This document shows positions 8,689 through 34,900 of a stretch of 64,000 nt of DNA, piece after piece. Source of the stretch: Mizuhopecten yessoensis (Eukaryota). Position 1 is the stretch's first letter. Every line of letters begins with the position of its first letter. The notes beneath the pieces were generated by a model. It was not told where the DNA came from, ran no database searches, and saw only the letters and a list, made by a program, of their open reading frames with translations. Location of the stretch: NCBI RefSeq assembly GCF_002113885.1, contig NW_018405306.1, positions 128,161 through 192,160 of the forward strand, given 5' to 3'. The position numbers were made by a program, and so were the translations under genes.

Positions 8689-8757
8689 CAAGTATTTCCC
8701 ATCGGGCGAAAACTTGCAGAGTTGATTGGTTTGTCGAAACAGCTCAGAAAAATTCAT
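8689..8757 (-). CDS. WRAP73: WRAP73/WDR8 coding exon 1 ([23 protein letters not shown])
   Basis: ATG at 8757 on the - strand, 23 codons, donor TTG|gtaagg. Matches the recalled human WRAP73 N-terminus [23 protein letters not shown]. Confidence 0.95.
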
Positions 8758-9190
8758 CTTCTCCTAACTCAGCTAACATGTATACTAAATCGAGAATTGA
8801 ACAAGCCAACAGACTAAGCAACGAGTAAAGACACAATATACATTTTAAATGTCAAATAGCAAGTGTCAACATGCGGATACCGCCATTTTGAATTCAGCGC
8901 CAAAACAATCGCCGCATGCCTGTTATTTCTTACTAAATATGCATTTTAAAATTGTTTAAAACTGCAGACCCGGCTATTTTCTTCTGTCAAACAAATGTCA
9001 AATTGTTGTTTGGGTCGCAAACCTGTCAGGCGTGTCGTAAACAATAGATTGTTTGCAATGTTTTCATAAGTGAACCAACTCCTAGTAGGGGTGCCCCTTT
9101 CAACGCACCGGTGGCTCGCTGATTGGTCAGTTAATCAACAGAGCCCTGGATTAGGTTATAAAGCAGCTTCTATGGCCGGTTAGAGCCATC
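8758..9190. promoter_or_regulatory. Shared bidirectional promoter between WRAP73 (-) and the p53-family gene (+)
   Basis: YY1-type motif CCGCCATTTT at 8880-8889 (AAAATGGCGG on the WRAP73 strand), inverted CCAAT (GATTGG 9121-9126), TATAAAG at 9157-9163 facing +, and locally raised CpG content. Confidence 0.7.
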
Positions 9191-9230
9191 GACCACCACT
9201 GTCATTTCGTCTATGGATATAACCCTACTG
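9187..9230 (+). other. p53/p63/p73: Probable 5' leader exon of the TA isoforms of the p53-family gene
   Basis: Begins about 25-30 nt after the TATA box (start inferred) and ends at donor CTG|gtaatg (9231). Contains an upstream ATG at 9213. Confidence 0.5.
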
Positions 9231-10841
9231 GTAATGTTTTAGTTTTTTCATTAACAGTTTATCTTTAATTGTAAACTAACATCAGCAGCGAAGAAATATG
9301 TTGTGACGTGTTTTCCCGCGAACAGTGTTCACCGCCATTGATATTTTGTACCACGTGGTATGCAATGGAGTCTCTTTGAAGTAAGAGGTAGGCTAGTTTG
9401 TGTACATGGGATGTTATAGACGTATCTATATGTGTTTTGGGGCCAACAAATTTCATGCTTCTTCAACGAAGTAACACCTCAACTCATCATCATCGTAAGT
9501 AACTTATTCTAAATATTTTATCGTGTACAGATATGATAAATTCCAAGTAAACTGTCACAACTTCACACGGGACACGCATGGTATCCCGAGAAATGTCAAT
9601 GGCGGATGGGTTTTCAGAATTTGTATGTCGGTCGTTCATAATTTACGACTCTTATATCCATGTTCACCTTTAATTTGAAATGCATCTGACATTCTGGAAA
9701 TTGTTGGGAAAGGACACATGTAATCGGGAAAACATAAGTTGATTGACTATGTGCTAACTGTTGGATTTTATTTTGTAAACAAAGACTCTTCGGATGTTTG
9801 ACGGAGATATCTTTACCGTTAGCAATTCGTTATCAAATGTATAACGAAGGTTTGTGCTTACTCTATTAATTTAGTTTTATTCATATCATATTCTTGATTT
9901 GAATTTGCATGAATGGATTCATTGACGTAATTGCAAGTTGCATCATATTTATTTTTGCACACTTGTTTATTTTTTGGGTAATTTCCTTCAATGTATTTTT
10001 CTGCTCGAGTTTTATCAATTTACAGTAACTATAAATCATTTATTTTCGCCGTTATATATTTTTAACAAGCATTTTCAATACGGTCTTTTGAATAAATATG
10101 TGTATAAATTAATATTTTAATTAATTGGTAATAAGATAATAAAAAAACACAAAAAAATAAATAAAGTAAGGTGATGATTGAAGATGATATTTTTATAAAA
10201 ATCATTTAAATAGATAAATGTGTATCAGTTAAACCAGTATGTTATAACATGGTTACACAAATGGCTATAATTTGAGGTAGATTTGATCACTTGTATCAGT
10301 TATATTTTACCCTTTGACTTGCTTTGTGGGAATTTAGGGCTAGCCTTTAAAGTTCGGTAATCAGTTGACACTAGAGCCCTTGTGTCAATTTCAATACCTG
10401 TTGGGTATTTTTAAGTCAGTTTCTATGCCTATGTAAAGTAGAAACTAAATCCAGTCATGCATGACATAGCAGTTATTGGTAGCTAGGTCAGGTTTCTTTA
10501 ACAAATTCTGAGTATCAACAATGACATCACCGGGGCAACGTGATATACACACCGTACAAAGAAAATTGAATTCAATAGATATATATTGAGTGTAGGAAAT
10601 TCTGAATATCAACGGCAACACCAGAAAACCAATATTTGGATAAGACTTTTATTGAAGCCTTGGAGGTTCACCAGGAAAATGTAAAAAATTCCATGGATAG
10701 AGGTACTACCATTTCTAGATTTGTGCCATAACTAGAAGATGAAATACTGGATTAAAAGTAAAATTCAAATGGAAGTTAGCTAGTATGTGATGAATTTCTT
10801 TCTTTTGCAGATTCAGTAAATTCATTCATCGTCACCCTGTC

Positions 10842-10960
10842 ATGTCCCAGCTGTCTACTGCTAGTACAACAACTACTAACGGTACACCCTCTGGCCCACC
10901 AATGTCTCAAGAAACATTTGAATACCTGTGGAACACACTAGGAGAAGTCACAGAAAATGG
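10842..10960 (+). CDS. p53/p63/p73: TA exon: transactivation domain ([40 protein letters not shown])
   Basis: Acceptor ttgcag ends at 10810, ATG at 10842, donor gtaagt at 10961. Has the SQETF motif and the MDM2-binding FxxxWxxL. Confidence 0.95.
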
Positions 10961-13900
10961 GTAAGTCTTCTTTAATTTTTCTACCTTTTCCTGAAAAATG
11001 AATTCATATTGATCAATCAATATCATAGATTAAGAAAAAGGACTAATAAATGAACTCCTCGGAATGCTTTTAAAATCACTAATAAGGCCAATTTAAAAAA
11101 ATCTTGTGTTTCCACTAATTCTACCTACCCTAGAATTTTGTACCCTTAAGTTTTTAATGGCATTAAGTGATAAGCAATGTTAAAATCAGGACTCCTGCTC
11201 TATAGAAACAGTAAAAATATGTTTAAAAAACTTTTAAAAATACCTACCTCCTATATATTGTTTCTCTGAGGATGATAGCGGAAACACAAGTAAAAAATGT
11301 TTTGGTCTAATTACTGATCTGGCATAATAAGTCTCAAAACAAATTATTTAAATTTGATTTCAGTGGATATACTCAGATTGCGAGCAGGGAATTAGATTAC
11401 GAATATGCAGAACCGGTGGGTGATGAGACAAGTTTACAGATTGAGAGATTCCAAATTCGAGGCCAAAATGACTCCATATCTGATCTGGTAAGTGCTTTAT
11501 TAAGATTTTTCATTAATAGCAAGTAGTGCCATTTTAGTCTTTAATTTGTCTTTTATCAATTAATCATTGCGTAATTTATGTGTTTTTACAGTTATATTGA
11601 GCAATTTTGCTGATTTTTGTTCTTGTCTATCTAGCTTATTGACACCCAAACAAAATTGTTTTGATAAACTGTGTGAAGCGTGAGCGACTTTGTGACTTCA
11701 TGGTGTGTACACTCCAAAAAGACTACCACTCAGTGCCTAGTCTTGACCACATAGCTGACACACGTCCATTACAAATGTGTTTACCACACATCAGTGTGTT
11801 TTACCTTTAAACATAGGTAACCCCTAATGTTCACCTGTAGCACAACTGCAGACCCACCAAGGGCTTTGTTCTGGGTGTGACCAGGGTCACACAGATAGGT
11901 GAGGAATATGGGGATCCTAAATTTACTTTGAGGGATACAAACATCTTGACAGAATGTTTGATTATCATTAAACAGGCCAGATAGAAAAGGAAAACAAACA
12001 CAGGTCTGGCCTGCTTTTAAATTTTCAGTGTGTACTGTACGCCTGTACACAGCCCCACACACCATTACAAGTCTACAGCCACAACACCATGTGGTTGAGC
12101 TAAAAATAAACACAGGTAGCGTCTCTTCTGGTTGTCAAGGCAACCTGGTGAAGCTTTACTCATTAAAAGCTCTGACATTTGAGCCAGGTTTTCCCAAGGC
12201 CAGTAGGCATTCAGATATAGATTTTCCAGCCTCTGTAGCCACATATAATTATTGGACCAGGCTTTTCCCTTTGTGTAGTATGTAGCCTCGTAACAGAAGT
12301 CATTAACATAATAAATTCTCAGTGAACCCAGTGGTGTGTACCTATATTGTAGATTGAACAGCGCCTGATCTGGTACTTACCTGTACATGTCAGGACAGGT
12401 AGATAATTACGTACCTTAGCAAGACTGGACATGCCACATATATGTAGATATTTCAGTAACTTTAAAGCAGATATTTAGTCTCGAAATGCATCAGTGAGAC
12501 CATTGGATTGAACAGTTATATCTGTGATATATATTTATGTTAGAATTTTTCCTGTGATATTACATACACTCCGTCCAAAATGATTAAGTTTGAGAGAACT
12601 GGATTCACCACATACAGGGTAAGTGATTAGGTGTCGAGTTTATTAGTAACTCGGACCACATGGTGTTGTTAGTAATGTACTTAATTAGAAATTCTCAATA
12701 ATTTTCTTACGACAAAAAAGGGGGGGGGGGGTCAGAATGGGTGTTTATTGGGGGATTTCTTCATTAAATTGAAGTCATTAAGAAATATTAGGGTTAACAT
12801 AGAAATATATCTTTGATCATCCGTATAAACAGATAAATTATGTTTCAAATTTTTTATGTGTTTGAATTAAGAAAGAATTGTTGAAAATTGACATTGATTA
12901 TTGTTTGGTCATTTAACTTTATATTCTATTAATTTTAATCATTATTGAAACATCTCAATCATTCATTATCAATGAAATATTTGTGTACAAAGGTCAAGCC
13001 AGGTGTGTATGCTAATTATATCACTAGCTGCAGACTGTTGCTGGTGAGATCTGCTAAAAATACATCGGTTGATCAATAAATATTGATAGATTTTTCATAA
13101 GAAGCTTTATGAATAGAGGGAAAAGTACAATTTTTTTGTGTTCAACAAAAGCAATTCAGACATAATTTCGAAATTAATTCTCTAAAATATTATTGGAAAT
13201 GTGTTTTCAAACATTTAAAATGTTATTGTTGATTATTTACACTCAGTTTTAAAATACATCTTTTGTTTTGTATCGTTTTAAGTCTTCCTATACAGTACTT
13301 ATCTATTCTTTCATAATTTTATTTTGTGAATATATTGACAAAAACAATAAAGAAAATTTTGTTAAAATAGCGATGTGTGTCCCACTGAAGGTATGAGTGG
13401 GTAGACTTGTACTCAAAATGTCAGGTTGTTCTTATCTGTAATGATATTCATAGACACAAGTAGGTCTAACATGATTACTTCATACCTATCGGCTGGTCAT
13501 ATATATCTACCACACTGACCTACATTATTGATTTATTATCTTACACTACTTATCTCCTTATTAACTGTTGTGAAGCAGAGCCTAATATGTACTGGTTTAT
13601 ACTGAGTTTACCTACCACATGATATAATAAAACTTCTATTTTTTTGAAAAATTTGTTCATAAATTTATTTCTTCTCCAGAAATATTAAGTAATAATACTG
13701 ACATTTTAGTACAAGTGTTAAATATACTCTCAAATTAAAATCAAAATTAAAAGCATCAATAATTTACTACCAGAATATCTAACAAGCGAAGTGTACACAC
13801 AGGAACATGATGGTAAAGATACATAACAAGCAAGGCATAATTGATCGTGAATTAAAATTAAATCAATTTGACAATCTCATGTTTTGATAGGTGTATTCAA

Positions 13901-16900
13901 ATTTATTAAATGTAAGAAAGGTAAAACATATCCATGTTCCCACTCAGTTTTTAATTATGTGGTTGACTTGAAAAAAATAGCTAGTTAACATTCACCTGCT
14001 TTAATGTTGATCTATACCTAAACATATTTTTTTGAGGGAAATTGCTGTTTCAAAGTTGAAGAACAGCAGGCTGTTTTTGCTGGCAACCAGCTTTTAATGA
14101 AAACACTCATGTTACCTTTAAGGGGATATACTTTGTAAAAAGTTAAATTTATCAGATGTTTCATTTTGATGTCGTTGCAGCTTAACCCTATCATCGCTAA
14201 CACAACATCGGCCAGTTCTATGAGCCCAGACTCCCAAACCAACATCATCGGCAGCTCAGCATCCAGCCCATACAATGATGTAAGTATCTGTGTTAGTTTG
14301 TGTCAGTTTTCGTAGAACAGTGCATGTAATGACTTAGTAATGCTTTCACCATGAATAGGTACATATAATGTAGATATTTCTTCACAATCATATTCACAAT
14401 TAGATTCGGATTATGTATACTTAAATATTTCAAACATGTTTTTGGAATATTTCATGCTTAGTGACAATTTATTTCATACTATTGACATTAAATTCACTGT
14501 AAACTTGAAATCTTCAAGATTTAAGTTGTTAATTTGGTTTTTTTATTGACTTGGAATTTCATTGTTTTTTTTCTAAGTTTAGTTGTGTTTGTGCTCACTG
14601 TTTGATGTTGTTGTAATGTGGATGTGTTAATTTCAGACCATCACATCCCCGTCCCCATATTCACCTCACACGGGAATGCAGTCCCCCATTCCATCAGTAC
14701 CATCAAAGTAAGTCAATCTCCTCCTCACAATTCAATATTTTCATCAGTAAAGGGCATTTCGTTATTGTAATTTCCATCGTTTTCATCAATTTCCATTGTT
14801 TTCATCAATTTGAAGTCAAAGTGTGAATGAAAATTTTGTTTATTTCATTAAAAATTTGTCTTCACTTTTGTATTTGAACCTGTACTTCAAAAAAAAAATG
14901 TTTAGGTTTCTTGTCAATATCATTTATTTTAAGGATATCTTAAAAATAATAATTCAACAAAATAAAACAATATCATCATACATCAAGATACTTGTTTAAA
15001 ATTTTCTTTTAAAAATAAAATTGTAAAAGAAATGTATGTATTTATTTTATTGACTTATTGATAATAGCCGGGTGGGGATAGGCAATTTGCATGTGGCTTT
15101 ACTGTGGTGAACTTTGTAGAAATATTGGAACAAGTTATCATGACACAAGACATTGTTGTAGTATTGCTCCAAAATAGATTATGTACGTAACACAATGGCG
15201 TGTTTGATAGCCTTGGGGTGCTCTACAGCATTGGCCATTGTACGTGTTCCAACTTGAAAGCCCAATTTAAATCTCCCCAGAATATTGATGTTATCAGAAA
15301 AGTCATAAGGTAAACAAGCCGGGTCCCACAGGCTAAACCTGTACAACGACTAAACAGCATTGTAGGTTTCCATTAGACAGGTACATTAATTAATAGTTCA
15401 AGGTAGCGATCAAAAACTTCTCTTCAATTATTAATAACAGAGAATCATTTCAAAATGAGCACATGTGTAAAATGTATCAACCTGTGTGTACAGTAAAGTT
15501 TGAAATTCCCCTTTTTGCTAAAAATGGACTCTTCTGGCTTAGTAGTTAAGTGTTGACACAAAGGCCAGTGTATACTATAGTGTACCTGAATTTGATATGA
15601 AGGAGGGGAGGCACTATTGACTCACTCTGGTATTGATCTCCCTATGAAAGAACTAGTTTTTTCCCCCATTTATGCTAGTTCCTGGCTAATGAACACGAAC
15701 AAAAGTGAGGGATTGTCCTATTGGGACTGGTACCGTTAAATAACCGTAATCTAGGTCAACGACTCAGGAAATATTTTATGCTAGGCAGAATGCCTTTGTG
15801 TGACAAACACCAGCACATACTCCATTAGAACCACGCTTGGAGATTAAATATCCTGTATACATACAGGGCTGTGAATTCAAAATGGCCAGACAAAAATCTA
15901 TACCATAAGAGCGTTGTTCGTCAGGCTTGATCGACTTCTGTAATGGAATCAAAAACAACCATTCCAATGCATACGAGATATTTTCAATTACCACATTAAC
16001 ACATAGATTGTTTTATCTGGCAACTAAAAGAACAGGAAATGGGGATTTTTTTTCTTTATTCAGTTAACAGTGATATCTTAATTTTACCTCCTGTAGTATT
16101 CAGGGAAAGTCTATCATATTTCTTACAACACCACGAAGGAAAATATGATATTCCTACAACTCTCTGCAAGGCTTTCCACACAGATTTTCAATTCCGATTC
16201 TGTTCTTGTCTTTACAGCACAGACTATGCTGGAGAGCATGGTTTCGAGATATCATTTTCACAGCCATCGAAAGAAACAAAATCCACTACCTGGACAGTAA
16301 GTATACATACCACTAGTACAATAATTATCACATAGCAAGGCTGTTATGCATGTGGGAATTGAATTTACACCTGTTGTGTAAGAATCAGTTGTCACACCAG
16401 CCAAGACAGGTTAATTGGTCCAAAATACACTTGTACGTCTGATAATAATAATATTTACATATTCTAGGGTACTGTGTTTCATTCTCCTTTATTCAGCAAT
16501 GGAAACAAGTGCATTTTTGTCATAAATACATTGTACATATAAACCAGGAACTATGTAGTGGTACAATGCATTAAATGATAAACTGGTAATATTTCGTTAA
16601 CCTAAATATTACTTGACAGTTGACATTGAAGGCATCACAAATTTCACACATGGTTTATCACATGAATTAATTAACCAAATCAAGTTAATTACATTAACGG
16701 GCGTCACAGTTGTACAAGCACGCAAGAGGGCAGGCAATTAGAATAGCTTCTGACTACCAAGCTATCTTTGGATCACAAATAGCTGTTATAGTAATAATGT
16801 ATGAAGGTTCAGTTTTAAAATGAAGTGAAGTGTCATAAAAGTTTCGCCCTTTCACTTCTATCCTTATGAAAGTTGGTTGTTGTCAAGCTGCAAATTACAC

Positions 16901-19900: not shown

Positions 19901-22900
19901 CATTTTATCATCAGTGAATAAAAACCTGCTGGAAAAGTTAAGGTGGGTGGCAGGTGCAAATTGAGGACTGGAGAGCCACTTCTGCTGGAAATCGGAGAGT
20001 CAGTAAAGGGGAGATAACTCAAGGCAACACAGCCAACTCTACACACTGCACTAGAAATATATAATAAAAGTTTAGGAACTACACCATTGAGTCGAATAGC
20101 ATAAGAATAACAGAATCTGCTGTATTCAATTTTAAGAATGAGAGAGGTATGATGCACTTTGATTTGTTTTAAAAGAACAATTGATTGAGATGAATGGCGT
20201 GTGTGAGAGAGAAACTTGCTTGTGAACTAATCACACCCTCAGCTTGTTAGGTGATGTATAACCATGATTTGACCATTCCATCTGTCTGGTGGGATCGTGG
20301 TACACATGCATTTCAGGTCTTTTAAAGTTGTGGATTACCTTTTTACAGGCCTTCTATTCAAGTCTCAGACTTTGAGCCCAATCATAGTGACTTTTTCGCG
20401 AAGCTGGAACCATCAGAAGTGTCCTTTCCCTCACTTTTCACCGGCAGCCACCTGAACTACAAACAGCAGTTCAATTTCTCAAGAAATGAATACATAGTCC
20501 CTGAAGTGTAGTAGACTCATCCATTTAGTGTGACTTTTAATGAACAAAAAAAAAAGAGAAATGTCGTAACGACAGATCAAAAACTGAATAGAGCTAAACG
20601 GCTAAACTTGTGCCTGCTCATTTCAGGTGGCTGTCGATGATTCTGGCTCGGGAAAGTAAAAGCAAGATGATGAAAAAATCCAAACGCCCACTAGCAAAAC
20701 CTGGCAAAGTGATCAAACCTAAGACATAGACTAATAAGACGTTGAAAAGCCAGTAATATCATGGGGCTTTGATATTCCACCAAGCTACAGAAAGAGACAG
20801 TTCAAGGATATTGACATCATCTACTCTGACCTGGTGAAAGAGCCGTGGATATCCAACGAACAGTCTCGAGCTGATATTCCTGATGTCCGTGTCACATGTT
20901 CAGCACATCGCCTATCTCTGCTTGGACATGCCAGGGTAGATACAAGTGCTTGCCGAATTTCTTCCTTGGACAGCCGATCCATTCTCTGAAGTGTTTGAGA
21001 TAGATCAGGAACCGCACCATTGTCCTAATTGCGTGGATGAGATCCAGACACTGTCATTGGCCTGAAATCTCTTTGATGAAGGGGTGTCACCACTGCTCTT
21101 ACCATCATGGAGGGACTCAATACAAGGGCATCAAAAATGCCAATAATTCCCAATGTGTTCATAAACATTTTATATTCAACGATCTTCATTTAAACACATA
21201 TTCCATTGAATAGTACAAATAATGATTTGTGTACATATATTCATTATAATGAATCCATTTTGCATGAAACATCTGATCATTTTTTTTTTTTGGAAATAGG
21301 ATCTTTATTTTAAAGTGTCACTTTGTGTTCTTTTGTTTGGATTTTATTTATTGTTTTGTTTTGAAACATAAGTTATATGTTAAATCTGAACTTTGAAAAA
21401 AATCATACAAAGTTCTAATGCAGCATAAAAGTTTGCATTTTAAAACAAAAATCATTATTTGACTAAATTTGAAACTGTATTTTTAATTATTTTTTATCCG
21501 TCCATTTGATTAGTTATACCATGACTCTGGTAGTTATTTTTTAGAATTAATTGTTTGTTCAAAATCTCCTGTTGAAAAGATTTTAAAGAAGACAAGGAAT
21601 CTCTTTTTATCACAAAGAAGGTTTTGTATCATTTGTATTCTATATATAGCTTATTAATTTATGTATATTTTTGCATTAAAGAAAGAATAAGTGCTTCTTA
21701 CTTCAATCTGGAAATGATGAGAAATTATCATTTTTAGTTTCTTTTTCAAAGCCGTGCTGATAATTTAAAAATATGTATATAAATATTGATATTTAATTTT
21801 ATTTATATTGTACATAGTACAGTTTTGTTTCTGTAATTCTATCGTGTGAATTAACTCATATGAACAATTATATTGGAAACTGGGTTTTATACACAGTTTC
21901 TTTATATTTATTTATACTCTGTACATTCTCAAATAAAATAGTAGTGTATATTTGTTGTTAGTTGTTCTCATTCAAGTTATCAGATCAAGATTCAACCCAT
22001 GACTACTCTTTGGACCTCCCTCATTAGGAGGGAGACTCCCTCATTTTGACCAAAATTCACCAATCTCCCTCGAAACTCCACATTCAAGTCTCAACTTGCA
22101 CAAACTGAAAATCTACATCCTGTGGTCAAATGATCTCCTAGTTATTGCCCGGTGTGTGTAATTACAACAGATGTGTCTGAATCAAATGAATAACTTTTTC
22201 GAGCTATTTTGATACATAAAAAGGGAAAGATAAATTGAGCAAAGCAGTTTAAGTTGGATTTCATGCACTTTCTCCCACATTGGAAATATGGAAAAATGAG
22301 GGATATATCCCTCATTGGAGGTGTCAGGGGTTGACACCTATGTCTTTGGTACATGCTGTTTATCAAGGAAAATTTTCACCCAACGGTACTTAAAGCCTTC
22401 ATGGTGTAGTCATGATGAAATTTGATCTGGCAAAAGTTAAGATGTGACAAACAGCTTTGTATTCATAACACTGTGTCTGGTATATATCGAAGCTCTTGCC
22501 ACTTTCAAATCTTTGTTTAGCTTGCAATTTTCTTAAGGTCTTAAAAATGTGTGCATTGTTATTTTGAATGCATACACCTGTTAAGTTCGCATTTGATATT
22601 TTCAAAATATGATGACAAAATATTTAGAATAATGAAAAACAACACTCCGCTTACCATGATTTGAATAGCTTGCCATAGAGTTACAGTTCACTAGACACGA
22701 ATAGGAAATGTCTATCAGAATGGTTTGAATTCACTTAAATCTCAAATATTTGTTAATTTCTTAGATAAAATATTTTGATATTTAAATTTTATGATGCATG
22801 AAAAATGCAGGATTTCAACTTTGTCTCTTTTGTCGGTATACTGACCATTTGATTTGACCGCACCAAGTTGTTGTGATCTATACAGATAGAACTTTTGTTC

Positions 22901-25900
22901 TTATCCAACATACATTTTATAAGGGAACTAAATAATTATAGTTTGAAATGTTATACTTTTCAAGATTTCCTGTTTTCAAAACTGAAAGAAAGACGACAAA
23001 ACATTTTGAAAAGTATAACATTTAAAATCAAATTCTTTCTAGTTCTCTTTGAAAGAAGATTACAAAACAAAACAGATGTGGATCATTCCAACTACTCAAT
23101 AGGACTCTTAAAGAAGATTTTCAACTAAATCGACTTTGTAAATTCCAAAGAAAATGATATGAATTAACAATCAGGATCAAGATTTAGGTACACACACACA
23201 CAAAGTCCTGGATTATCAAAAGGGTGTTTACCCAATTTTCTGAAACTAATTTCAAAAAGTTGTTTTAAATTAAACATGTCCGAACTTGATGTATTTAAAT
23301 CAACTACCCAGTTAATTTTTTGTCTCTTTATCAATTCAGAAAAATGTAAAGTCACTCATTACCTTTTAAAAAAATCAACAAGTCTCAACTTGATTTTAAA
23401 AATAATCCGCTTCTAATATTACCCATTAAAAGCACTTTAAAAATTCTCTGAAGTGATTTTTCTGGTTGACTAGCTAGAATATTAGGAGGAGACATAGATA
23501 AACACTAAAATTAATATATTACTCAAATGTTCAAGGATTTTAAAATTATCTTATGTCTTATTTAAACAGCTATTAGTGTGATTGTTCAGGAATTTTTGTT
23601 ATCTAAAATAATATGATTTATGCAAATTTATATTGCAACAATAAGTAATAAAAACTTGACAAAGGAAAATTTTGTTTAGGATCTGCCTACATAATCTGCT
23701 GCTGTAATAGTTGATAAAATATCATTGAGTAAAGTTGATATACCTTAAAGGTGTCCAGAGGCACTTACATGTGGTAAAGGGCTAATATTGGACATGTCAA
23801 AAAAAAAATCTTGTATATTTTACACAAAAGTAATATTGATACAAAGATCACTTTGTAAAGGGGTTAATGATGGTAAGCTAAAGACAAAAAGAACCCATAA
23901 ATATGTGTGCTAATGTAAAGTTTGAAAAAAATCCATTAAATGATGAGTTTTAAGACTTTGTTAACTCGTTCACCCCTAAAGTCACATCTGAACCTTACCA
24001 AATCAACGACTAGGCAAGTCCAGTTTAGATATGTAGGGGTGCATGAGTAATGCTTACCAGAATTTTAATATCTATATGCATCTGTTTAAAATTTCCAAAT
24101 TATTGTAAAATTGCACCTTTGATGACAGTAATATTAAAACCCTTAACAAATATTATCAAGTCCTTAAACATTATTTTCAAAACAACATCCAACAACTTGT
24201 CAAAATTCTGAAAAGGAAAGTTCAGGAGAAGGAAATTTCTTCAAAAAACGGTGTTACAGGGAAAATTGTAAGCATATCGGAAAAGCTGGAAAGAATAAAA
24301 AAAATCTGCAAAAAATAGACCTTCAGAAAAACAATGTGTTGTGAAAAAATAAAACTTTTTTATTGCAAAACAGAAATTAACTGAATTAAGTATTTATAAA
24401 TTCCATCCGTGGATGCACATCATATTAAAAAATTAAATTGTCTGATCAAACAATGTCAGCAGAACCCCAAAAAATCATTATTATCAGTAATGTCTATAGA
24501 GTTTTACATCTGCCAAATACAGAAATGACTAACAGACATGCACACATTTCTAGCACAACATTGTGATCCGAACTCCGACTTTCCAGATATCTTGTCAATT
24601 TTATCACTGTATCTTATTCACATAAAGTTCGAAAAAACAAACCGAAAAAAGTCGGATTAGGTCGTCTTTTTAGAATTCCAACATCAACCTGGGTTCGAGC
24701 AGCACATTTTTGTGTGTAAAATATGTTCCAAAAGAGCATATGTATGATTTTGCTTCTCTTATAAAGACACAAAATGATTTGCGAGTATCAAACATAAATT
24801 ACAGTCTGTGGTTGGAAATGGCTAAACATCAGTTTAAAGATTAAACAACCAGGTGGACAACATTAAAAACTATAGAAAGTGTGTTTTCTGACCTTGTCTA
24901 ATCTGACTTCCCAAGGTGTCGGGTACGACAGGTTTTATTGTGTCAGATGAACACAACTGATACCAGTAGACTTAAATAACCTAAATATCAGACGCCTACA
25001 GTAAGTAGAGATAGACTTCAAAACATATGTTAACAACATACAGTCCCAGTAACTACCAAAAGGCCTAATCTGTAATCCTCAATATTTTTTCAGACCATCC
25101 GCCACACATCTTGTGTCCATCCCAAGTCGAGAAGGTACCCCTGTAACGACCCAGACGACCATGCCCTTCGGTACCGAGTCCACAGTGCAAGTAACAAGCT
25201 CCCAGAATGGTCATCCAGCCGTCACGGTCCAACAGGTTCTGTCCGCCCCTGTCGACAATCTCAGTCCCTCGGCCATCAAGGAGGAGCTTAGCTCAACACT
25301 CAATGGGTGTGCCATTGACAATTCCATCAAGAGGTTAGTTCGAAGTTTTCCTCCTGCCACAATGATGTGGAACAAGATTGTGGGCTACTTTGTCATGAGT
25401 CAATGTTTCAATGCAGAATGGGGGAGGGGGGGGAGACGTAGACTAATTTGTTCAATTACATCGCTGAATATAACATGATGCTGACTATATTGACTCTGAT
25501 TTTCGACACGTTCGGTCATTCCAACGTCTGCTGAATCCCCAAATAAATTGCTCGTTTTAATCTTGTGTGACTGGTTATGTTAACCACTGCTCATCTGAAC
25601 TATTGATATACATTTTGTATATATATATCTCCTCTTTGGTTTAGAAAATCGGCTATAATACAACATTGAAAATGCAAAACAAAGTTTTGTTATTAAATAT
25701 TTAAAAACAAAAACTTTGCACAATTTTTCTGGTAAATGTTAAATTGACACATTATCTTTGTTTAAACATAAGAAAATATAACATTTGTTTTGCTTACAGT
25801 TGGTTAGCGAGTCTTGGTCTGTCGGCATATATTGATAACTTCCACCAGTTGAACCTCAGCACTATGCAGCAGCTGGAAGATTTCACTATCGAGGTAAGCC

Positions 25901-31949: not shown

Positions 31950-34900
31950 AATTTAGTAGAGATAACATTGAACCCGATGTAAATACAAATGTACTGTATT
32001 TGAAAAGTTCCATGACACATTTACAGGTATTATTAACAAAACATATACCAGTAAAGCGGATAAAAGTGTATCAACAACTGAAAACAGCTATTTTTAAGAA
32101 ACGTGAGTTACATGACAAATATTTATCATGTAAAACAACTGCCAATTGGGGATACTATCGGAAACAAAGAAGTCTTTGTATTAGTATGAGAAGAAAGTCA
32201 ATAAATTAATATTTCCTTGAACGATGGGCTGGAGGACCAAAATCTAAAGATTTTCGGCCTACCATTAAGCGTAATATTGTTTTATGTGAACATGATGCAT
32301 TAGTGTGTGACCAAAAGAGAGTTAGTGAGACTTTTAATGATTTATTTTTTCAACGTAGCTAAAAACATAGGTATTAACAGCATTGAGGTAGATAAATACC
32401 ACCGCAGTATTCAGACTAGTCAAGATCATATTACAACAGTAGAAAACCTTTTAATTTACACCAGTTGATGAGAATTTTGTCAGCAAATGCAATGCATTGG
32501 TAACCTAAGTGTGAGAAAAGCCACAGCTAGGAATAGACGGAGTTTCAGCCACGTTTGTAAAGCTTGTACGTCAAGAGATTCTTAAACCTTTAACATCTAT
32601 TTGGGAATTATTCTCTTTTAAACTATATTTTTCCAGACAGAATGAAAATAGCACAAGTAGTTCCATTGCATAAGAAAAACAGTACTCTTGAAACAGATAA
32701 TTATCGTCAAGTCAGTGTGCTACCAGTATTGTCAAAAATATTTGAAAGAGCTATTCATTGTCAGTTAGTTGAATTTGTTAACTACCATTTTAATGATTAC
32801 TTATCAGCTTTTAGATCAGATATGGGTGTCAAACAGTTCTGTTGAAAGTTATAGGGGACTGGAAGAAGGCATTAGATGAAAATAAATACACAGGGACTAT
32901 TTTAATGGTTTGTCAAAAGCATTTGATTGTGTTCCGCATGACTTGCTTTTATTGAAACTTAAGACATATGGGTTAGCGGACAATGCAGTAAATCTTATAC
33001 AGAGTTATCTTAGTGATAGAAAACTGTGAAAATGAATGATTTTTGTAGTGGGTTTTTAGATTTGTACAAAGATGTGCCCCAGAGATCAATTCTCGGGCCG
33101 GTAATTTTTAACATATTTTTGAATATCTTTTACTTCGTCTCAAATTGTGAACTGTATAACTACGCAGACGACAACACACTGCCACATGCGAGTCCAAATA
33201 TTACGGATGTGAAACATTTTCTAGAAACAAATAGTTCTTATTTAGTTCATTGGTTTTCAGATAATCAAGTACAGACAAACCCAGATAAATGCCAGGCTAT
33301 ATGTATTGGAAAGAAAACAAATTCTGCAAATTTGACTTTTAATATTGAAGGAACAGAAATTCAGCCAGAGGATTGTGTAAAATTATTAGCTAAGTGTAAA
33401 AATAGATTACCAGCTAAAAGTTAAGCAACATATATCTAATATTTGTCAAAAAGCATCTCGTCAGTTAAATGTCTTAAAGAGAATTGGATCATATCTTAAT
33501 AGACTAGGCAGACTTACTGTATATCATACTTTTATTATGTCAAATTTTAATTACTGCCCATTGGCTTGGCATTTTTGCGGCAAAGTGGAAACAAAGAAAA
33601 CTTGAAAGATCGACCATGACAGTTCTTATGAATCACTTCTGTTGCAGTCAAAGATGCCAAGCCTGAAACTAAGGAGGATGAGAATTTTATCTTTAGATAC
33701 TTTTAAAATTATACATAAAGAAACTCCTGTTTATCTTCATGATCTCATTACAATGAAAAATAACTTACTGATACCACAAGTGAGAACTACAAGTTTCGGT
33801 CTTAATTGTTTTTGTTTTAGTGCAGCAAAGTTATGGAACTCCCTTCCCGACTCATTTAGAAAAAAAAATCTTTTTTTTTTAATACAAATCCCAGTTGGGA
33901 AGGGGAGTCCTGCAATTGTAGTGCTTGTTCTTGATCTGTGTTAAAATTACTATGCAGCTTTTTAGGTATATTTCCAGCTCAGTGCTTATTGGACACTGCC
34001 TAAGTGCTTATTGGACACTGTAGGCTTAGTGCTTATTGGACACTGCCTTAGTGCTTATTGGACACTGTAGCCTTAATGCTTATTGGACACTGACTTAGTG
34101 GTTATTGGACACTGTAGGCTTAGTGCCTATTGGACACTGACTTAGTGCTTATTAGACACTGTAGACTTAGTGCTTATTGGACACTGACTTAGGGCTTATT
34201 GGACACTGACTTAGTGCTTATTAGACACTGTAGACTTAGTGCTTATTGGACACTGAATTAGTGCTTATTAGACACTGCCTTAGTGCTTATTGGACACTGA
34301 CTTAGTGCTTATTGGACACTGCCTTAGTGCTTATTAGACAGTGCCTTAGTGCTTACTGGACACTGACTTAGTGCTTATTGGACACTGACTTAGTGCTTAT
34401 TGGACACTGTAGACTTAATGCTTATTGGACACTGACTTAGTGCTTATTGGACACTGAAGACTTAGTGCTTATTGGACACTGCCTTAGTGCTTATTGGACA
34501 CTGACTGAGTGCTTATTGGACACTGACTTAGTGCTTATATTGGACACTGCCTTAGTGCTTATTAGACAGTGCCTTAGTGCTTACTGGACACTGACTTAGT
34601 GCTTATTGGACACTGTAGAATTAATGCTTATTGGACACTGACTTAGTGCTTATTTGACGCTGTAGGCTTAGTGCTTATTGGACACTGACTTAGTGCATAT
34701 TAGACACTGCCTTAGTGCTTATTAGACACTGCCTTAGTGCTTATTGGACACTGTAGGCTTAGTGCTTACTGGACACTGTCTTAGTGCTTATTGGACACTG
34801 CCTCAGTTCTTATTGGACACTGTAGACTTAATGCTTATTAGACACTGACTTAGTGCTTATTGGACACTGTATACTTAATGCTTATTGGACACTGACTGAG

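What the first reader, a model, noticed from the sequence alone, without database searches (positions are those of the whole stretch)
12380..12624. Internal DeltaN promoter with a p53-type response element: candidate autoregulatory feedback loop
Seen: zero-spacer element TAGCAAGACT-GGACATGCCA (12417-12436; 17/20 match to RRRCWWGYYY x2, both CWWG cores intact) and a weaker half-site GTACATGTCA (12383). These are followed by an inverted CCAAT, a TATA-like box and a 13-codon exon in phase with the core. Established: the vertebrate DeltaNp73 promoter is induced by p53/TAp73 through such an element, and DeltaN proteins act as dominant negatives. Inference: the TA-to-DeltaN negative feedback loop also exists in this mollusc, by ancestry or convergence.
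Basis: partly seen in the sequence, partly recalled or inferred. Interest (0 to 1): 0.7.

Follow-up and report, generated by a model that had tools for sequence, protein, structure and literature searches.

The report
Self-binding motifs in scallop p63 promoter
A scallop p53-family gene makes a shortened protein from an internal first exon, and two p53-type DNA motifs just upstream recur at the same place in two other molluscs, so the gene likely switches on its own brake, as human p73 does.

Summary
The exon is real and already known. RNA reads join 12618 to 14181 (44 and 57 reads in two runs). Its peptide [13 protein letters not shown] starts annotated DeltaN p63/p73 isoforms in bivalves, with close variants in gastropods and a chiton. 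The 17/20 zero-spacer p53-type element (12417-12436) is present, and the 'weaker half-site' is half of a second full site (12383-12402, 15/20). Reads begin near 12490-12505, so the CCAAT and TATA-like motifs are transcribed. A TTTAAA plus TCAGT pair fits the read edge and puts the element about 60-75 bp upstream of the start. Alone the element is modest (about 1 expected per 64 kb). However, 2 of 2 other mollusc DeltaN loci found, whose flanks do not align with the scallop's, carry the same tandem pair at matching distances. Each has a site of at least 17/20 (shuffle P 0.003 and 0.004; the two loci are related to each other). So it is probably a conserved site bound by the gene's own products. 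Binding, induction by TA and dominant-negative action are untested, and p63-like self-activation by DeltaN is a serious rival. I found no report of the element.

The parts
12383..12402 (+). Distal p53-family-type full site, 15/20, no spacer, cores CATG and CAGG
   Evidence: counterparts at -219 (L001, 18/20) and -230 (L002, 15/20) from the DeltaN ATG, scallop -197
12417..12436 (+). Proximal p53-family-type full site, 17/20, no spacer, cores CAAG and CATG; about -76 to -57 from the inferred start
   Evidence: counterparts at -166 (L001, 15/20) and -174 (L002, 17/20), scallop -163; 9 of 14 core-to-core positions invariant in all three
12461..12466 (+). TTTAAA, candidate TATA-like box 32 bp before the inferred start (inferred)
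   Evidence: L002 has TTTAAA 23 bp after its proximal site (scallop 25 bp), L001 has none
12491..12495 (+). TCAGT, initiator-like motif; candidate start at A12493 (inferred)
   Evidence: motif; coincides with the read edge at 12489-12505 and the pile of 5 read starts at 12502
12493..12579 (+).
   Evidence: read depth; motifs; organism-B contig differs at 1 of 115 positions over 12504-12618
12580..12618 (+). Coding part of the DeltaN first exon, [13 protein letters not shown]
   Evidence: identical start of RefSeq XP_021350070.1 (P0095) and of 18 other bivalve proteins
12619..12624 (+). Splice donor GTAAGT
   Evidence: joint to 14181; depth falls to 0 after 12624
14181..14279 (+). First shared exon (acceptor for both TA and DeltaN)
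   Evidence: joints 11487>14181 and 12618>14181
10811..11487 (+). TA-specific exons 10811-10960 and 11364-11487 (transactivation region skipped by DeltaN)
   Evidence: joints; tblastn

Best explanation
This is the expressed internal DeltaN first exon of a scallop p63/p73-type gene, preceded by a conserved tandem pair of p53-type elements that the gene's own proteins likely bind, so that active TA forms would switch on DeltaN and DeltaN would then likely damp TA. Shown: the exon is spliced to the shared core, and no splice joint enters it from upstream. Its transcripts begin mostly near 12490-12505. The DeltaN protein lacks the TA exons but keeps the DNA-binding, oligomerisation and SAM domains. 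Two zero-spacer sites lie just upstream, here and in two other molluscs. Inferred: the start at about 12493; binding by the scallop protein (its DNA-binding domain is 77% identical to an annelid one that binds the p53 consensus); activation by TA tetramers (most plausibly the short gamma form after stress); and inhibition of TA by DeltaN through site competition or mixed tetramers.
For: Exon use. These six are the only sites of at least 15/20 in 6270 bp scanned. Shuffle P for a site of at least 17/20 within 300 bp of the ATG: L001 0.0027, L002 0.0040; for two sites of at least 15/20: 0.001 each. The scallop pair is the only pair within 60 bp among 12 such sites in 64 kb. Blastn finds no significant flank match (E<0.1) between scallop and either locus, and 6-7 of 12 codons differ silently, so the motif outlasted neutral decay. 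All C and G core positions are kept while W and flank positions vary. The strong site is distal in L001 and proximal in L002 and scallop, as expected for binding-site turnover. DNA-contact motifs are intact against p63 (residue roles recalled). The Alvinella domain, 154/200 identical, binds the p53/p63 consensus in EMSA (PMC8901663 section 9). Precedent: TAp73 and p53 induce DeltaNp73 through an element in P2, and p53 induces Delta133p53 (reviews PMC8227208, PMC3191818, passages). The locus is single-copy, not a repeat.
Against: No binding, reporter or induction data. L001 and L002 share a 119-bp block at 72% identity, so they count as about one independent test; their taxa are unidentified and n is 2. 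TA and DeltaN share one DNA-binding domain, so the motif cannot tell which isoform acts or with what sign. Vertebrate DeltaNp63 activates its own expression and is repressed by p53-inducing stress, and one review says the negative loop was not described for p63. DeltaN junction reads are 32-54% of the TA plus DeltaN total in two runs of unknown treatment, which also fits constitutive expression. Two more sites of at least 17/20 lie in an intron (23272, 23376), so such matches occur without known function. All raw-read support comes from one study (P10), from unstranded libraries, not CAGE.
Confidence: 0.55

Rival explanations
1. The sites are real p53-family elements but are occupied mainly by DeltaN itself, which maintains (p63-like positive loop) or represses its own expression; TA plays little part.
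For: Same sequence evidence. The gene is closest to p63 among human paralogue structures and is named p63 by curators. p63 positively feeds back on its own proximal promoter. DeltaN is abundant. The nearly invariant 13-residue peptide in bivalves, gastropods and a chiton suggests DeltaN has a function of its own beyond truncation.
Against: Two of three vertebrate paralogues use the TA-to-DeltaN direction. A zero-spacer site next to the start is the classic activating arrangement (established knowledge). No transactivation by molluscan DeltaN is known to me.
Confidence: 0.27
2. The conserved block is bound by another factor (for example NF-Y or an E-box repressor), or the scallop match is chance, and the resemblance to a p53 element is incidental.
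For: About 1 site of at least 17/20 is expected per 64 kb. CCAAT/ATTGG motifs lie near or inside the sites in L001 and L002. CAGGTA/TACCTG motifs overlap or abut the scallop distal site. Position 8 of the first half-site is a non-consensus A in all three proximal sites.
Against: Tandem sites with exact 10-bp core spacing lie at matching distance in 3 of 3 loci and nowhere else in 6270 bp. E-box motifs are not found in L001 or L002 within 1400 bp of the ATG. CCAAT is not upstream of the start in the scallop.
Confidence: 0.18

Closest known systems
Molluscan DeltaNp63/p73 isoform (Mytilus AAZ05996/ABI23724; Lottia, Crassostrea and Biomphalaria TPA DeltaNp63 entries; Mizuhopecten XP_021350070.1)
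   Same: Same exon position and same or nearly the same 13-residue start; the isoform paper is cited in PMC10564563 (reference line only).
   Different: I found no description of its promoter elements or start site in the papers I could search.
Human TP73 P2 (DeltaNp73) promoter with its p53/p73 response element
   Same: Internal promoter in the intron after the TA exons, short unique N-terminus, element close to the start (review passages). A WRAP73-like gene lies head-to-head here, as at vertebrate TP73 (recalled). I recall the human element at -76 to -57, the same offsets as inferred here; unverified, as the paper was not held.
   Different: Binding and induction are shown in human, not here. 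The mollusc has two tandem sites and one gene serving p53, p63 and p73 roles. No sequence homology of the promoters was tested or is expected.
Vertebrate TP63 DeltaN promoter
   Same: Same gene architecture with SAM domain and gamma exon; the promoter is bound by family members.
   Different: Regulation there is positive by p63 and negative by p53, with intronic enhancers C38/C40.
TP53 P2 / Delta133p53, and arthropod DeltaNp53 (shrimp, Drosophila)
   Same: Internal promoter giving a TAD-less isoform; p53-induced in human; present in shrimp (PMC5374463 passages).
   Different: Different intron in TP53; the term 'response element' occurs 0 times in the shrimp paper.

Membership tests
DeltaN isoform of a p63/p73-type gene | Alternative exon between the TA exons and the shared core, spliced in frame | tested here: met
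   joint 12618>14181 in 2 of 4 runs; loose ends matching 14181 in 3 of 4 runs
DeltaN isoform of a p63/p73-type gene | Lacks the transactivation exons, keeps DNA-binding, oligomerisation and SAM domains | tested here: met
   tblastn map of P0095 against TA proteins; Pfam of DeltaN representative P0005 lacks PF08563
DeltaN isoform of a p63/p73-type gene | Own promoter (first exon with a capped start) | tested here: inconclusive
   sharp read edge at 12490-12505 and no joint entering the exon, but no CAGE, and low coverage extends upstream past 12200
p53-family response element | Two RRRCWWGYYY decamers, short or no spacer, intact cores (consensus recalled and given in the finding) | tested here: met
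   17/20, spacer 0, both cores; second site 15/20 with one CAGG core
p53-family response element | Conservation beyond neutral flanks | tested here: met
   2 of 2 other loci; the two are related to each other and their taxa are unidentified
p53-family response element | Cognate protein able to read the consensus | tested here: inconclusive
   contact motifs intact; 77% identity to a domain that binds the consensus; the scallop protein itself is untested
p53-family response element | Bound in vivo and needed for regulation | not testable with these tools
   needs ChIP, EMSA, reporter
TP73-type negative feedback loop | TA induces DeltaN through the element | not testable with these tools
   run treatments unknown; no perturbation data
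TP73-type negative feedback loop | DeltaN inhibits TA (dominant negative) | not testable with these tools
   shared DNA-binding and oligomerisation domains make it possible; not assayed
   both lie at or inside the read-covered 5' region

The most novel reading that the evidence does not exclude
The TA-to-DeltaN feedback circuit is ancestral to bilaterians: the single pre-duplication p53-family gene, head-to-head with WRAP73, already had an internal promoter wired to its own product, kept as a tandem element across bivalves and as the P2 element of vertebrate TP73.
Probability: 0.3. Interest if true: 0.65.

Novelty: new member of a known kind. Interest (0 to 1): 0.45.

Why it matters
Autoregulation of p53-family internal promoters is documented in vertebrates. 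A conserved element in molluscs, which have one family gene, would date the circuit before the vertebrate gene duplications or show convergence. It is a small, directly testable target (two 20-mers and a located start). It may also bear on isoform balance in bivalve stress responses and transmissible neoplasia, where this gene is studied.

Tried and rejected
No relative genomes are held. The records behind L001 and L002 are not held, so their taxa stay unknown. Pattern scans of genome contigs and viral contigs gave 0 loci. One search used an antisense frame by mistake and found nothing. An MDM2 positive control failed: PF02201 found only a BAF60-like exon (identification recalled). The AlphaFold model of the DeltaN protein says nothing about the peptide (pLDDT 33 over residues 1-10). 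Rfam: 0 matches in 11488-14200. (bacterial promoter scan) was irrelevant. Run X1 laid no contig (no evidence either way). X23 and X24 were too shallow. E-box (CAGGTR) enrichment was rejected as a shared feature: 3 in 700 bp in scallop against 0.9 expected, 0 in L001 and L002. A repeat origin was rejected: 1 match in G000. Papers not held: PMID 17242983, PMC2890203, PMC133713, PMC2926756, PMC2916963, PMC2869528. The '-76 to -57' figure was not found in two reviews. Earlier scan findings: none. No supplements were read.

Full report
Gene and organism. The window holds a p63/p73-type gene. Its exons match Mizuhopecten yessoensis RefSeq proteins best (98-100% on most exon blocks; lower values on blocks that run past exon ends) and other scallops less well. 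The region is single-copy in G000. TA exons lie at 10811-10960 and 11364-11487, with two upstream first exons ending at 9230 and 9494. The shared core starts at 14181.

Observation. All motifs are at the stated coordinates. The 'weaker half-site' is followed directly by GGACAGGTAG, giving a second full site of 15/20. Alone, the 17/20 site is modest: 3 such sites lie in the window against 1.0 expected from 200 shuffles. Local shuffles give P 0.003-0.004 for 300 bp and 0.03 for 1 kb, after the fact.

The exon is used. Of 4 raw-read runs laid on 9000-15300, two show the joint 12618>14181 (X20 44 reads from 29 starts, X22 57 from 39; TA joint 38 and 119). Two shallow runs show none (TA joint 4 and 1). 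X21 adds 63 reads whose loose ends match 14181. A contig from a second organism (X19, RNA by guess, another study) carries the same splice with 1 difference in 115 bases. X1 laid nothing. X20-X22 are one study. No joint enters the exon from upstream, so it behaves as a first exon.

The start lies further upstream than proposed. Relative depth in X21/X22 is 0.16/0.08 at 12472, 0.29/0.24 at 12489, 0.50/0.54 at 12506 and 0.76/0.90 at 12557 (ratios). Five molecules begin at 12502 in X20. The ATTGG and the TATA-like run are therefore in the 5' UTR of most transcripts. TTTAAA (12461) and TCAGT (12491-12495), 32 bp apart, fit the edge; I infer a start near 12493. This places the sites at -76 to -57 and -110 to -91. 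This is RNA-seq, not CAGE. A minor downstream start is possible, and low coverage runs upstream past 12200.

The isoform is known. Among 225 stored proteins, 40 carry the motif. Nineteen, all bivalve, begin with exactly [13 protein letters not shown]. Gastropods have V, M or L at position 4, and a chiton has MMKF. None of 13 Octopus cluster members has it. Several are named Delta-N p63/p73 or DeltaNp63 by depositors. The 2007 isoform paper was seen only as a reference line.

Conservation test. One metagenome scan with a degenerate exon pattern gave 2 loci, L001 and L002; three other scans gave 0. Both encode the bivalve-type peptide and the donor, differ from the scallop at 7 and 6 of 12 codons, all silent, and show no flank match to it at E<0.1. 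Both carry two zero-spacer sites: L001 18/20 at -219 and 15/20 at -166; L002 15/20 at -230 and 17/20 at -174; scallop 15/20 at -197 and 17/20 at -163 (from the ATG). These six are all the sites of at least 15/20 in 6270 bp. In 20,000 shuffles of each 300 bp, a site of at least 17/20 arose at 0.0027 (L001) and 0.0040 (L002), and two sites at 0.001 each. MAFFT aligns the proximal sites, and 9 of 14 core-to-core positions are invariant. Caveats: L001 and L002 share a 119-bp block at 72%, so they are not independent, and their taxa are unknown.

Can the protein read it? The DNA-binding domain aligns to p63 with the contact motifs intact (roles recalled). It is 154/200 identical to the Alvinella domain, which binds the p53/p63 consensus in EMSA with lower affinity than human p53 (PMC8901663, section 9 read in full).

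Mechanism. Most likely the sites are bound by the gene's own products (about 0.8). The sign is open. TP73 and TP53 use TA-induced DeltaN as a brake (passages of PMC8227208, PMC3191818, PMC3195385), whereas p63 feeds back positively and PMC3191818 says the negative loop was not described for it. I put negative feedback at 0.55, DeltaN self-regulation at 0.27, and another factor or chance at 0.18. Ancestry versus convergence is undecided. The WRAP73-like neighbour and the exon position resemble TP73 (recalled). But nemertean and annelid DeltaN-like starts have unrelated peptides, and lamprey p63 showed no DeltaN form (PMC4743058 passages).

Novelty. Ten literature searches (listings seen) and passages of ten papers gave no report of a p53-type element in a molluscan DeltaN promoter. 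The main molluscan p63 papers were not held, and no supplements were read, so prior mention cannot be excluded. Verdict: known isoform, corrected promoter anatomy, and a probably real, apparently unreported conserved autoregulatory element of a known kind. Interest 0.45.

Noticed in passing
window 8689-8757 (-), further exons toward position 1: A WRAP73-like WD40 gene lies head-to-head with the p63/p73 gene, about 450 bp from the first TA exon (best single-stretch PDB hit WRAP73-like; a Plakobranchus p63 gene model is named wrap73-like). Vertebrate TP73 has the same neighbour (recalled); one search listed no paper on this synteny in invertebrates.
   Followed up: partly
window 23272-23291, 23376-23395, 22082-22101: Three more zero-spacer p53-type sites (18, 17 and 16 of 20) in the intron after the gamma exon, two of them 104 bp apart; possible intronic autoregulatory enhancer or chance; conservation untested.
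   Followed up: partly
window 11532-12470: Low read coverage upstream of the main DeltaN start, none in 12625-14063: an upstream minor start or a TA-derived transcript running into the exon, like vertebrate DeltaN'p73.
   Followed up: no
window 12523 and 12553; L002 at -95 and -73: TGTGATAT/GTGATAT twice in the 5' UTR of scallop and L002; a Mytilus coruscus gene model (P0115) reads CDI at a similar place. Possible conserved RNA or downstream-promoter motif. The UTR is 99% identical in organism B, whereas 12200-12254 is 91%.
   Followed up: partly
window 12537-12557: Six-codon upstream ORF in the DeltaN 5' UTR; the one organism-B difference (12551) keeps it open; no such ATG is seen in the L002 UTR.
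   Followed up: partly
window 12580-12618 and 11430-11460: The nearly invariant DeltaN peptide begins like the TA exon-3 strand LQIERFQI that it replaces; it may mimic an autoinhibitory strand (speculation; the fold model was uninformative).
   Followed up: partly
P0183, P0185, P0189, P0205: Venerid clams, Dreissena and Littorina have a second DeltaN-type first exon with a different peptide joined at the same acceptor.
   Followed up: no
window 9230 and 9494: Two alternative non-coding first exons for TA are both used; a 15/20 p53-type site lies at 8857 in the bidirectional promoter region.
   Followed up: no
window 32594-33944: Broken reading frames resembling a LINE reverse transcriptase (by eye).
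   Followed up: no
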